In this document: positions 1 to 3,000 of the stretch, piece after piece | Position numbering within the stretch: the stretch's first letter is position 1 | How the letters are laid out: each line of letters opens with the position of its first letter | Assembly: GCF_003991155.1 (NCBI RefSeq) | Contig: NZ_CP031293.1 | Reading direction: 5' to 3' (one strand) | Source: Escherichia coli | Lineage (GTDB): Bacteria; Pseudomonadota; Gammaproteobacteria; Enterobacterales; Enterobacteriaceae | DNA length: 64,000 nt | Made by a program: the position numbers

Positions 1-3000
1 GTTTCAATGTAGTAAAGGCCCGGCAGACGGTTTTCCATCCGTTGGGTCAGGGAAGTATCAACGTTCTCGCCGTGCCAGGCGTCCAGCATCTGCTGGCTAA
101 AACTGTCCGTTCCCAGCGCCGTTACGTAATGAACGGTTAATGCCGCAGGATCGACCTGACGGGCGATATAGACGGAAGTGTTCAGGGTATCTCCGCCGAA
201 ACCGCGCTTAACGTCCGCGCCTTTCTCGGAAAGCTCAATCATGCATTCGCCAATCACGGCAATCTTTTTGGACATAGTCGTGAACCTGATCTGTAAAAAA
301 TTAGCGTTAGTTTGCGCTGTGGTGGTTTGCTGGTCAACCATATTAAAACAGTGTTCCATTATTTTTTTGAGCCAGAACGTATTCCTGAAAGATTCCGTTG
401 TGGAGTGGGGAAATTTACCCCGGCCAGGCGGTAAAGTTCTGCCCTTGCGCGCCGATAATCTTTGTCGAGTCCGGGCAGCATCACTTTTAAACACAGGACA
501 TCTTTGATGATAAGGCAGGTTATCCAGCGAATAAGCAACCCTGAAGCAAGCATCGAGAGCTTGCAGGAACGGCGTTTTTGGTTGCAGTGTGAGCGTGCTT
601 ACACCTGGCAGCCGATCTATCAAACATGCGGGCGGTTAATGGCCGTGGAGCTATTAACGGTGGTCACGCATCCCTTGAACCCTTCGCAACGCCTGCCGCC
701 GGATCGCTATTTTACTGAAATCACCGTTAGCCATCGGATGGAGGTTGTGAAAGAGCAGATTGATTTGCTGGCGCAAAAAGCCGACTTCTTTGTAGAGCAC
801 GGCCTGCTGGCATCGGTCAATATTGATGGCCCTACGCTCATCGCCCTGCGTCAGCAACCAAAAATCCTGCGCCAGATTGAGGATCTTCCCTGGCTGCGTT
901 TCGAACTGGTGGAACACATCCGCCTGCCGAAAGATTCAACCTTTGCCTCGATGTGTGAATTTGGCCCGCTGTGGCTGGATGATTTTGGTACCGGGATGGC
1001 AAATTTCTCTGCACTAAGTGAAGTGCGTTATGACTACATCAAAATCGCGCGAGAACTGTTTGTGATGCTGCGTCAGTCGCCGGAAGGACGCACACTCTTT
1101 TCTCAGCTTTTACATCTAATGAATCGCTATTGTCGCGGGGTGATTGTCGAGGGCGTAGAAACGCCGGAAGAGTGGCGTGATGTTCAGAACTCGCCCGCAT
1201 TCGCCGCACAAGGCTGGTTTCTTTCACGCCCGTCACCGATAGAAACGCTGAATACGGCGGTTCTGGCGCTATAAGCTGCCTCATTTTCCGCCTGGCTGGA
1301 CTATCTTTAGGACTGGCACAGGAAGAATATGAGGAAGCGAACGATGAGCAAGGCAGGCAAAATAACCGCTGCGATTTCAGGGGCTTTCTTGTTGTTGATT
1401 GTCGTGGCGATCATTTTGATTGCAACTTTTGACTGGAATCGACTAAAACCGACCATCAACCAGAAAGTCTCTGCGGAGTTGAATCGTCCGTTCGCTATCC
1501 GTGGCGATCTGGGCGTGGTGTGGGAGCGGCAAAAGCAAGAAACTGGCTGGCGCAGCTGGGTGCCGTGGCCCCATGTACACGCGGAAGACATTATTCTTGG
1601 CAACCCACCAGATATTCCCGAAGTCACAATGGTGCATTTGCCACGCGTAGAGGCAACGCTGGCACCGTTGGCGCTGCTGACCAAAACGGTCTGGCTACCG
1701 TGGATCAAACTGGAAAAGCCCGACGCATGCCTGATTCGCCTCTCTGAAAAGAACAATAACTGGACCTTTAATCTCGCCAGCGATGACAACAAAGACACGA
1801 ATGCAAAGCCGTCGGCATGGTCGTTTCGGCTGGATAATATTCTGTTCGATCAAGGGCGGATCGCCATTGATGACAAAGTAAGCAAAGCGGATCTAGAAAT
1901 TTTTGTCGATCCGTTAGGCAAGCCGCTGCCGTTCAGCGAAGTTACTGGATCGAAAGGTAAAGCGGATAAAGAAAAGGTGGGCGATTACGTTTTTGGCCTG
2001 AAGGCGCAGGGACGTTATAAGGGAGAGCCGCTCACTGGTACGGGAAAAATAGGCGGTATGCTGGCGCTGCGTGGCGAAGGGACGCCGTTTCCGGTACAGG
2101 CTGATTTCCGCTCTGGTAACACCCGTGTTGCTTTTGATGGCGTTGTGAATGACCCAATGAAGATGGGTGGTGTCGATTTACGGCTTAAATTTTCTGGCGA
2201 TTCGCTGGGTGATCTCTATGAACTGACGGGCGTTCTGCTGCCCGATACCCCGCCGTTTGAAACGGATGGTCGGCTGGTAGCGAAAATCGACACTGAAAAA
2301 TCGTCGGTCTTTGATTATCGCGGCTTTAATGGGCGCATTGGCGATAGCGATATCCACGGTTCTCTGGTCTACACCACCGGCAAGCCACGACCAAAACTGG
2401 AAGGTGATGTCGAGTCGCGGCAATTGCGGCTGGCGGACCTGGGACCGTTGATTGGCGTTGATTCCGGGAAAGGAGCTGAAAAGTCGACACGGTCTGAACA
2501 GAAGAAGGGTGAAAAAAGCGTTCAGCCTGCGGGCAAAGTGCTGCCTTATGACCGCTTCGAAACCGATAAATGGGACGTTATGGATGCCGATGTTCGCTTC
2601 AAAGGGCGGCGCATTGAGCATGGCAGTAGCCTGCCGATTAGCGATCTTTCTACTCATATCATCCTCAAAAATGCTGACCTGCGCCTGCAACCGCTGAAAT
2701 TTGGCATGGCGGGCGGCAGCATTGCGGCGAATATTCATCTGGAAGGTGATAAAAAACCGATGCAAGGGCGGGCAGATATTCAGGCTCGTCGACTGAAACT
2801 GAAAGAACTGATGCCCGATGTGGAACTGATGCAGAAGACGCTGGGGGAAATGAACGGTGACGCGGAACTACGCGGTAGCGGTAACTCGGTGGCGGCGCTT
2901 TTAGGCAACAGTAACGGCAACCTGAAACTGTTGATGAATGACGGGCTGGTGAGCCGCAACCTGATGGAGATTGTCGGGCTGAATGTCGGCAACTACATTG

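What the first reader, a model, noticed from the sequence alone, without database searches (positions are those of the whole stretch)
432..506. Consensus FliA promoter places pdeH in the flagellar class-3 regulon
TAAAGTTC-N11-GCCGATAA is an almost perfect sigma-28 promoter roughly 50 nt upstream of the EAL phosphodiesterase gene, which links c-di-GMP degradation to flagellar gene expression. This is known biology, but it is directly visible here and confirms the pdeH start at 507 rather than the longer ORF start at 462.
Basis: partly seen in the sequence, partly recalled or inferred. Interest (0 to 1): 0.2.

Follow-up and report, generated by a model that had tools for sequence, protein, structure and literature searches.

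The report
Known FliA promoter of E. coli pdeH
This is the already well-documented flagellar sigma-factor (FliA/sigma-28) promoter in front of the E. coli c-di-GMP phosphodiesterase gene pdeH (yhjH); it is real, strongly conserved and correctly read, but it is textbook biology rather than a discovery.

Summary
TAAAGTTC (432-439), an 11-nt spacer and GCCGATAA (451-458) sit 48 nt upstream of the pdeH ATG at 507. This matches 15 of 16 positions of the E. coli sigma-28 consensus TAAAGTTT-N11-GCCGATAA. About 0.0017 such matches are expected by chance in the window.

The window is E. coli chromosome (kdgK <> pdeH > yhjG). The same motif in K-12 differs by one spacer base. It is a published FliA ChIP-seq site (5th strongest of 52), and yhjH RNA falls from 511 to 2 in a fliA deletion (Fitzgerald 2014). 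pdeH is used in the literature as a class-3 / FliA-activity reporter.

My own test covered 79 orthologous loci from about 30 genera of Enterobacteriaceae. Every one keeps TAAAGTT[C/A]-N11-GCCGATAA, 47-57 nt before the ATG in 78 of them, while the spacer varies freely.

The ATG at 507, not the TTG at 462, is supported by four things: the predicted transcription start (about 464-466), a conserved ACAGGA ribosome-binding site, the aligned ATG in every genus, and the non-conserved upstream frame.

I could not retrieve a base-resolution mapped start site for pdeH.

The only unexplained point is a conserved TGACGAGT block at the start of the transcript.

Verdict: already known, low interest.

The parts
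432..439 (+). -35 element of the sigma-28 (FliA) promoter, TAAAGTTC (7/8 to TAAAGTTT)
   Evidence: Sequence; consensus. TAAAGTT is invariant in 79/79 orthologous loci, and the 8th base is C or A.
440..450 (+). 11-nt spacer TGCCCTTGCGC. Its length is fixed and its sequence is free; K-12 has A at 447.
   Evidence: The spacer sequence varies widely between genera but is always 11 nt long.
451..458 (+). -10 element GCCGATAA (8/8 to consensus). Its TAA (456-458) is the in-frame stop that bounds the long ORF.
   Evidence: The element is invariant in 79/79 orthologous loci. The in-frame stop at -51 is shown.
464..466 (+). Predicted transcription start (inferred, not mapped); G464 is the nearest purine.
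   Evidence: TSSs lie 18-22 bp downstream of the centre of the 28-nt FliA motif at flagellar promoters. The annotated 5' end of MotR lies 7 nt after the -10 octamer of the motA FliA promoter. The K-12 ChIP peak centre maps to window 473.
462..464 (+). TTG that opens the 270-aa mechanical ORF; rejected as a start codon.
   Evidence: It lies 3 nt after the -10 element, at or before the predicted TSS. The aligned triplet in other genera is TTG, GTG, ATG, AAG or TAG. UTR length differs by amounts that are not multiples of 3, and many genera have in-frame stops.
463..472 (+). Conserved block at the 5' end of the transcript, TGTCGAGTCC (TGACGAGT[C/T]C in most genera); function unexplained.
   Evidence: It is >=90% conserved at 5 of 8 positions across 78 distinct upstream sequences (also seen in 62 distinct UTRs). 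It is absent after the -10 of 8 other K-12 FliA promoters. No consensus RNA structure was found.
493..498 (+). Shine-Dalgarno region ACAGGA, 8 nt before the ATG.
   Evidence: ACAGGA is >=90% conserved in all genera and keeps a constant distance to the ATG.
507..1274 (+). pdeH (yhjH) coding sequence: a 255-aa EAL-only c-di-GMP phosphodiesterase.
   Evidence: RefSeq annotates 768-nt pdeH genes at the matching place in K-12. Pfam EAL E 2.6e-32. There are 3 amino-acid differences from K-12.
1..275 (-). 5' part of kdgK, the divergently transcribed neighbour; it defines the 231-bp intergenic region 276-506.
   Evidence: Annotation of matching E. coli records.

Best explanation
Window 432-458 is the sigma-28 (FliA) promoter of pdeH/yhjH, and it appears to be the only significant promoter of that gene. 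RNA polymerase carrying FliA recognises TAAAGTTC and GCCGATAA across an 11-bp spacer. It starts transcription about 6-8 nt downstream (window about 464-466), giving an mRNA with a leader of about 41-43 nt whose ACAGGA Shine-Dalgarno directs translation from the ATG at 507.

FliA is held inactive by the anti-sigma factor FlgM until the hook-basal body is finished and exports FlgM. PdeH is therefore made together with flagellin, motor and chemotaxis proteins (class 3). PdeH then hydrolyses c-di-GMP. This keeps the YcgR flagellar brake off and holds down c-di-GMP-dependent curli and cellulose expression while cells are motile.

Shown here or in papers read here: the motif, its statistical significance, its conservation, FliA occupancy, FliA dependence of the RNA in K-12, and the EAL domain. 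Inferred: the exact start nucleotide, and that this strain behaves like K-12. Taken from established knowledge and not tested here: the FlgM checkpoint and the YcgR/curli consequences.
For: - Motif and coordinates.
- Consensus.
- Chance expectation 0.0017. Best PWM score in the window, 23.4 bits against a shuffle maximum of 18.9.
- Locus identity kdgK<>pdeH>yhjG.
- K-12 FliA ChIP-seq site with the same motif, FAT 67 (5th of 52), and yhjH RNA 511 -> 2 in a fliA deletion.
- Array data, -9.6x in a fliA deletion and +1.9x on FliA induction.
- pdeH called a class-3 gene and used as a sigma-FliA reporter, on a fragment that maps to window 227-557.
- The intergenic region differs from K-12 at only 2 of 231 positions, neither in an octamer.
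- The 88-bp promoter/leader is present at >=95% identity in 5,421 of 5,426 complete E. coli genomes.
- 79/79 orthologous loci from about 30 genera keep both octamers and the 11-nt spacing while the spacer sequence diverges.
- No sigma-70-like promoter was found in 1-2000.
- TSS calibration.
Against: I could not retrieve a base-resolution mapped 5' end for pdeH from any held paper or supplement, so the start nucleotide is a prediction. All functional data come from K-12, not from this strain, whose closest genome match is 2016C-3878. The sigma-70 scan is a crude consensus scan and cannot exclude a weak additional promoter. The conserved TGACGAGT block at the transcript 5' end suggests there may be more to the regulation than promoter recognition alone.
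Confidence: 0.96

Rival explanations
1. The promoter is real, but pdeH expression is additionally controlled through the conserved TGACGAGT(C/T)C block at the very 5' end of the transcript. This could be a binding site for a small RNA or a protein, or a weak anti-Shine-Dalgarno partner (GAGUCC against GGAC(A)UC). This would add to the main explanation rather than replace it.
For: Apart from the promoter octamers, the SD and the ATG, the block is the only conserved stretch in 78 distinct upstream sequences (also in the 62-UTR alignment). It is not a general feature of K-12 FliA promoters. The E. coli minimum-energy fold pairs GUCC with GGAC of the SD.
Against: RNAalifold finds no consensus structure on 62 UTRs. 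The E. coli leader folds no better than shuffles, z = +1.2, with 180 of 200 shuffles folding at least as well. Both candidate partners are invariant, so no covariation can be scored. The sigma-28 sRNA paper does not mention pdeH. The conservation could instead reflect start-site context or promoter escape.
Confidence: 0.15
2. The match is a chance occurrence of the consensus and is not used as a promoter in this strain.
For: No experiment was done on this particular strain. Consensus matches alone do not prove function.
Against: The expected number of such matches is 0.0017. The identical octamers are FliA-bound and required for expression in K-12. They are invariant across about 30 genera while the spacer drifts.
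Confidence: 0.01
3. Translation starts at the TTG at 462 (or the in-frame TTG at 504), giving a longer PdeH than annotated.
For: The 462-1274 frame is open. TTG 462 is kept in Escherichia, Citrobacter and Salmonella, and TTG 504 lies 3 nt before the ATG.
Against: TTG 462 lies 3 nt after the -10 element, at or upstream of the predicted start, with no room for a ribosome-binding site. Its counterpart is AAG or TAG in some genera, the frame is broken by length changes that are not multiples of 3 and by stops, and the stop that opens the ORF is the TAA of the -10 element itself. TTG 504 is present only in E. coli and one Citrobacter. The ATG and the ACAGGA 8 nt upstream are universal. RefSeq and the Hengge laboratory number from ATG 507.
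Confidence: 0.02
4. A second, FliA-independent promoter in the 231-bp intergenic region contributes materially to pdeH expression.
For: The region also holds the divergent kdgK promoter. Only LB exponential phase was examined in the RNA-seq study.
Against: yhjH RNA falls to 2 from 511 without FliA. No sigma-70-like site was found in 1-2000. No conserved block other than the sigma-28 elements lies within 60 bp upstream.
Confidence: 0.05

Closest known systems
yhjH/pdeH FliA-dependent promoter of E. coli K-12 MG1655 (Fitzgerald, Bonocora & Wade 2014, PLoS Genet, Table 2; motif centre NC_000913.2 3677273)
   Same: It is the same locus (kdgK-pdeH intergenic region), with the same -35 and -10 octamers, the same 11-nt spacing and the same distance to the ATG. 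229 of 231 intergenic bases are identical.
   Different: There is one spacer base difference (G in the window, A in K-12, window 447) and one base at 408. The protein has 3 substitutions (V96I, D126R, S243A, written window to K-12). No functional difference is expected.
Canonical class-3 flagellar promoters (tar, tsr, fliC, motA, flgM)
   Same: The two-block sigma-28 architecture TAAAGTTT-N11-GCCGATAA is the same. pdeH is as close to consensus (1 mismatch) as tsr and flgM, and only tar is perfect. Its ChIP occupancy (FAT 67) is within the range of these promoters, which run from 48 (flgMN) to 110 (fliC).
   Different: The product is a signalling enzyme (an EAL phosphodiesterase), not a structural, motor or chemotaxis protein. 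The pdeH leader carries a lineage-wide conserved TGACGAGT block that the other promoters lack.
FliA-controlled c-di-GMP phosphodiesterase BifA of Pseudomonas putida/aeruginosa (PMC5300878, PMC4866697)
   Same: The logic is the same: the flagellar sigma factor drives a c-di-GMP-degrading enzyme so that motility and low c-di-GMP coincide. This rests on titles and abstracts seen.
   Different: BifA has a different protein architecture (GGDEF-EAL) and is only partly FliA-dependent according to the title. It is not orthologous to pdeH. I did not analyse it here.

Membership tests
Sigma-28 (FliA) dependent class-3 flagellar promoter | -35 element matching TAAAGTTT | tested here: met
   TAAAGTTC at 432-439, 7 of 8.
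Sigma-28 (FliA) dependent class-3 flagellar promoter | -10 element matching GCCGATAA | tested here: met
   GCCGATAA at 451-458, 8 of 8.
Sigma-28 (FliA) dependent class-3 flagellar promoter | 11-bp spacer between the two octamers | tested here: met
   440-450 is 11 nt. The spacing is identical in 79/79 orthologous loci.
Sigma-28 (FliA) dependent class-3 flagellar promoter | FliA/RNAP occupancy in vivo | tested here: met
   Evidence is from the literature for the K-12 allele only: a ChIP-seq peak with FAT 67, whose centre maps to window 473. It was not measured in this strain.
Sigma-28 (FliA) dependent class-3 flagellar promoter | Expression abolished without FliA | tested here: met
   Evidence is from the literature for K-12: RNA-seq 511 -> 2 in a fliA deletion and arrays showing -9.6x.
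Sigma-28 (FliA) dependent class-3 flagellar promoter | No direct FlhDC (class-2) input | tested here: met
   The FlhDC-bound loci named in the passages I read of the ChIP-seq study do not include kdgK/yhjH; Table 1 was not read in full. pdeH is called class 3.
Sigma-28 (FliA) dependent class-3 flagellar promoter | Primary transcript 5' end about 6-8 nt downstream of the -10 octamer | tested here: inconclusive
   No mapped pdeH TSS could be retrieved. Only a prediction from general FliA geometry and the MotR calibration is available.
Sigma-28 (FliA) dependent class-3 flagellar promoter | Conservation of the octamers in orthologous positions of other species | tested here: met
   79/79 loci from about 30 genera keep them while the spacer varies.
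EAL-domain c-di-GMP phosphodiesterase (downstream gene) | EAL domain covering most of the protein | tested here: met
   Pfam PF00563, residues 26-242 of 255, E 2.6e-32, 112.5 bits against a cut-off of 31.3.
EAL-domain c-di-GMP phosphodiesterase (downstream gene) | Catalytic activity on c-di-GMP | not testable with these tools
   This rests on the literature description of PdeH as the master phosphodiesterase. The protein here differs from K-12 at 3 residues.

The most novel reading that the evidence does not exclude
The TGACGAGT(C/T)C block at the first 8-10 nucleotides of the pdeH transcript (window 463-472) may be a dedicated regulatory element. It is conserved across about 30 enterobacterial genera and absent from other FliA promoters. 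It could be an sRNA or protein target, or a start-site or escape signal, that tunes PdeH output independently of FliA. That would add a second, post-initiation control layer to the switch between motility and biofilm.
Probability: 0.15. Interest if true: 0.35.

Novelty: already known. Interest (0 to 1): 0.08.

Why it matters
The promoter is the molecular link that makes E. coli lower its c-di-GMP level exactly when flagella are completed. That keeps the YcgR brake off and curli/cellulose expression down. This is an established part of the switch between motility and biofilm, and pdeH is routinely used as a FliA-activity reporter. Confirming it here adds no new biology. It does validate the gene start at 507 and shows that the first-stage reader can recognise alternative-sigma promoters from raw sequence. 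The comparison across genera done here documents how strictly the two octamers and their spacing are kept while the spacer drifts. It also exposes one small unexplained conserved block in the leader.

Tried and rejected
**Mapped TSS.** I searched for a pdeH/yhjH entry or for coordinates 36772xx/36792xx in the supplements of Kim 2012, Conway 2014 (none held), Cho 2014, Ettwiller 2016 and Mendoza-Vargas 2009. I also ran full-text searches. Thomason 2015 and Pesavento 2008 are not held. Nothing was found, probably because the long tables are truncated in the held copies.

**Klauck 2018 primers.** I checked the primers in the hope that '-280/+51' referred to a TSS. They map to window 227 and 557, so they are numbered from ATG 507 and give no TSS.

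**RNA element in the leader.** Rfam finds nothing in 1-3500 at E<=1. The single-sequence fold is no better than shuffles. RNAalifold on 62 orthologous leaders predicts zero pairs. The anti-SD hairpin idea is therefore not supported.

**TGACGAGT as a general FliA start-site feature.** Eight of nine other K-12 FliA promoters lack it, so this was rejected.

**MazF-regulon paper.** Its yhjH mention is only in the description of yjcZ and is irrelevant.

**Sigma-70 promoter scan of 1-2000.** No sites were found.

Full report
**What is in the sequence.** Reading the window and locating strings by script gives:
- TAAAGTTC at 432-439
- the 11-nt spacer TGCCCTTGCGC at 440-450
- GCCGATAA at 451-458
- an in-frame TTG at 462
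- AGGA within ACAGGA at 493-498
- the ATG at 507

The -10 octamer ends 48 nt before the ATG. The mechanical ORF list shows the 270-aa frame from TTG 462 to the stop at 1274. The 255-aa product from ATG 507 begins MIRQVIQRISNP.

**Is it more than chance?** The E. coli sigma-28 consensus is TAAAGTTT-n11-GCCGATAA (PMC2859248, Table 1), so the site matches 15 of 16 specified positions.
- With the window's base composition, 0.0017 sites with at most one mismatch are expected on both strands of 64 kb.
- The tool's dinucleotide shuffles give 0.57 sites at up to three mismatches, against two observed.
- I built a weight matrix from the 51 other FliA ChIP-seq motifs of K-12, leaving yhjH out. On it the site scores 23.4 bits, the highest in the window on either strand. 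The best score in 20 shuffled windows averaged 14.7 and never exceeded 18.9.

**Identity of the locus.** The first 1.4 kb matches 5,421 of 5,426 complete E. coli genomes over at least 80% of the query. It is 100% identical to strain 2016C-3878 and lies on kdgK (divergent), pdeH and yhjG. K-12 annotation places pdeH as a 768-nt gene whose ATG corresponds to window 507. The product has an EAL domain over residues 26-242 (Pfam E 2.6e-32). The 231-bp kdgK-pdeH intergenic region differs from MG1655 at two positions only: 408, and 447 in the promoter spacer.

**What is already known.**
- Fitzgerald, Bonocora and Wade (2014) list this motif (TAAAGTTCTGCCCTTACGCGCCGATAAT) as a FliA ChIP-seq site upstream of yhjH, with a fold-above-threshold score of 67. 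Normalised yhjH RNA is 511 in motile MG1655 and 2 in the fliA deletion, flagged significant.
- By my ranking of their table, yhjH is the fifth strongest of 52 sites. It is tied with tsr and flgMN as second closest to consensus; only tar is perfect.
- Their peak centre maps to window 473, about 29 bp downstream of their motif centre. They take this downstream offset of peak from motif (median 25 nt) as consistent with FliA binding within RNA polymerase holoenzyme.
- The FlhDC-bound loci named in the passages of that paper I read do not include this locus. This fits class 3 rather than class 2.
- Zhao et al. (2007) found yhjH down 9.6-fold in a fliA deletion and up 1.9-fold five minutes after FliA induction.
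- Klauck et al. (2018) call pdeH a class-3 flagellar gene and use its regulatory region as their sigma-FliA activity reporter. Their primers map to window 227 and 557, so the fragment is numbered from the ATG at 507.

**Independent test by comparison with other genera.**
- One scan of the species-representative genome collection with the PdeH protein returned 80 orthologous loci from about 30 genera. These include Escherichia, Citrobacter, Salmonella, Enterobacter, Lelliottia, Leclercia, Kosakonia, Atlantibacter, Siccibacter, Franconibacter, Pseudocitrobacter and Cedecea.
- In all 79 loci that include upstream DNA, the best weight-matrix hit within 300 nt upstream is TAAAGTT[C/A]-N11-GCCGATAA, at 19-23.6 bits.
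- In 78 of these it ends 47-57 nt before the position aligned to the E. coli start codon.
- The exception is Citrobacter amalonaticus S646, which carries an insertion of about 187 bp between the promoter and the ribosome-binding site.
- In the alignment of 78 distinct sequences, both octamers are conserved in at least 90% of sequences. The 11 spacer positions, apart from the T directly after the -35 octamer, and the 60 bp upstream are not. This is the pattern expected of a site under selection for sigma-factor recognition.
- Within E. coli, the 88 bp from 425 to 512 are present at 95% identity or better in 5,421 of 5,426 complete genomes.

**Transcription start and start codon.** I could not obtain a base-resolution mapped 5' end for pdeH. 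The held supplements of five genome-wide TSS studies contain neither the gene name nor nearby coordinates, and two key papers are not held.

The start is therefore predicted. For flagellar FliA promoters the TSS lies 18-22 bp downstream of the centre of the 28-nt motif. As a calibration, the annotated 5' end of the MotR sRNA lies seven nucleotides after the -10 octamer of the motA FliA promoter. Applied here, this gives window 464-466, with G464 as the nearest purine. That corresponds to NC_000913.3 3679228-3679230 on the minus strand.

Several points argue against TTG 462 as the start codon:
- It lies at or upstream of the predicted start, and no ribosome-binding site can precede it on a FliA-driven transcript.
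- The stop codon that opens the long ORF is the TAA of GCCGATAA itself.
- In other genera the aligned triplet is TTG, GTG, ATG, AAG or TAG.
- Leader length differs by amounts that are not multiples of three, and many genera have in-frame stops between the promoter and the ATG.
- By contrast, the ATG and an ACAGGA motif about 8 nt upstream are universal.

Together with the near-complete loss of yhjH RNA without FliA, this supports ATG 507.

**Mechanism.**
- Shown: a near-consensus sigma-28 promoter, conserved, FliA-bound and FliA-dependent in K-12, followed by a short leader and an EAL gene.
- Inferred: initiation at about 464-466, and equivalent behaviour in this strain.
- From established knowledge, not tested here: FliA is released when FlgM is exported through the completed hook-basal body. 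PdeH is therefore made with the late flagellar proteins. By degrading c-di-GMP it prevents YcgR from braking the motor and antagonises c-di-GMP-dependent CsgD/curli and cellulose expression. The roles of PdeH as master phosphodiesterase and antagonist of matrix production are described.

**An unexplained detail.** Directly after the -10 element there is a block, TGACGAGT(C/T)C in most genera and TGTCGAGTCC at 463-472 here. It is conserved in at least 90% of sequences at five of eight positions and would form the first nucleotides of the transcript.
- It is not a general property of FliA promoters. It is absent after the -10 of tar, motA, fliA, fliD, flgM, flgK, tsr and ycgR in K-12; only fliC has a similar TTGACGG.
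- I tested whether it forms an anti-Shine-Dalgarno hairpin with GGAC(A)UC. The E. coli leader folds no better than shuffles (z +1.2), and RNAalifold predicts no consensus pair in 62 orthologous leaders. Both partners are invariant, so covariation cannot be scored.
- Rfam has no match in 1-3500.

The block may reflect start-site or promoter-escape context, or an unknown regulator. I give the regulatory reading about 15%.

**Comparison with what is known, and verdict.** The feature is the same element as the published K-12 yhjH promoter, not merely similar to it. All defining features of a class-3 sigma-28 promoter that could be tested are met. The exception is the mapped start, which remains inconclusive for lack of accessible data. 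Novelty: already known. Interest: low (0.08). The finding is a correct reading of ordinary, well-characterised biology.

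Noticed in passing
window 55328-55355 (+), inside ORF 54969-56642: This is a second strong sigma-28-like site, TAAAGAATATAATAGTTTCGCCGATAAT. It has 2 mismatches and scores 20.2 bits, above every shuffle and similar to the real fliD and flgK sites. It lies in the sense orientation inside a DUF4049 (YhiJ/YhiL family) gene. The K-12 allele is degenerate (TCAAG...GCCGACAA, 12.2 bits) and sits in a frameshifted pseudogene. The absence of a K-12 ChIP peak is therefore uninformative. It may be a strain-specific intragenic FliA promoter of the kind Fitzgerald et al. regard as mostly non-functional.
   Followed up: partly
window 463-472: The block TGTCGAGTCC (TGACGAGT[C/T]C in other genera) at the predicted 5' end of the pdeH transcript is conserved. 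It is not shared by other K-12 FliA promoters and has no supported RNA structure. Its function is unexplained.
   Followed up: partly
L009 (Citrobacter amalonaticus S646), between the FliA promoter and the pdeH ATG: An insertion of about 187 bp separates the intact sigma-28 promoter from the Shine-Dalgarno, giving a gap of 235 nt instead of about 48. Its nature (repeat element?) was not determined.
   Followed up: no
L088 (E. coli JE86-ST05), equivalent to window ~420-425: An IS4-like IS421 element is inserted about 10 bp upstream of the -35 element. It is flanked by a GGGAAATTTACCC duplication. The FliA promoter itself is left intact at 23.4 bits.
   Followed up: yes
E. coli NBRC 3301 (hit H12), equivalent to window <682: The match to this locus begins only at window 682. 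The promoter and the first ~175 nt of pdeH are therefore missing or rearranged, and the neighbouring feature is annotated as a sensor-domain phosphodiesterase.
   Followed up: no
window ~341-365: ATTAAAACAGTGTTCCATTATTT in the kdgK-proximal half of the intergenic region resembles, from memory, a KdgR operator for the divergent kdgK gene. A similar string appears in the Pseudocitrobacter rows of the alignment. It was not tested against any model.
   Followed up: no
window 409-426: There is a small inverted repeat, GGGG-AAATTTA-CCCC, just upstream of the -35 element. It coincides with the IS421 target site seen in JE86-ST05. No function is proposed.
   Followed up: no
L083 (NC_000913.3 1977208-1977302): The annotated 5' end of the MotR sRNA lies exactly 7 nt after the -10 octamer of the motA FliA promoter. 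This gave a convenient calibration of sigma-28 start-site distance.
   Followed up: yes
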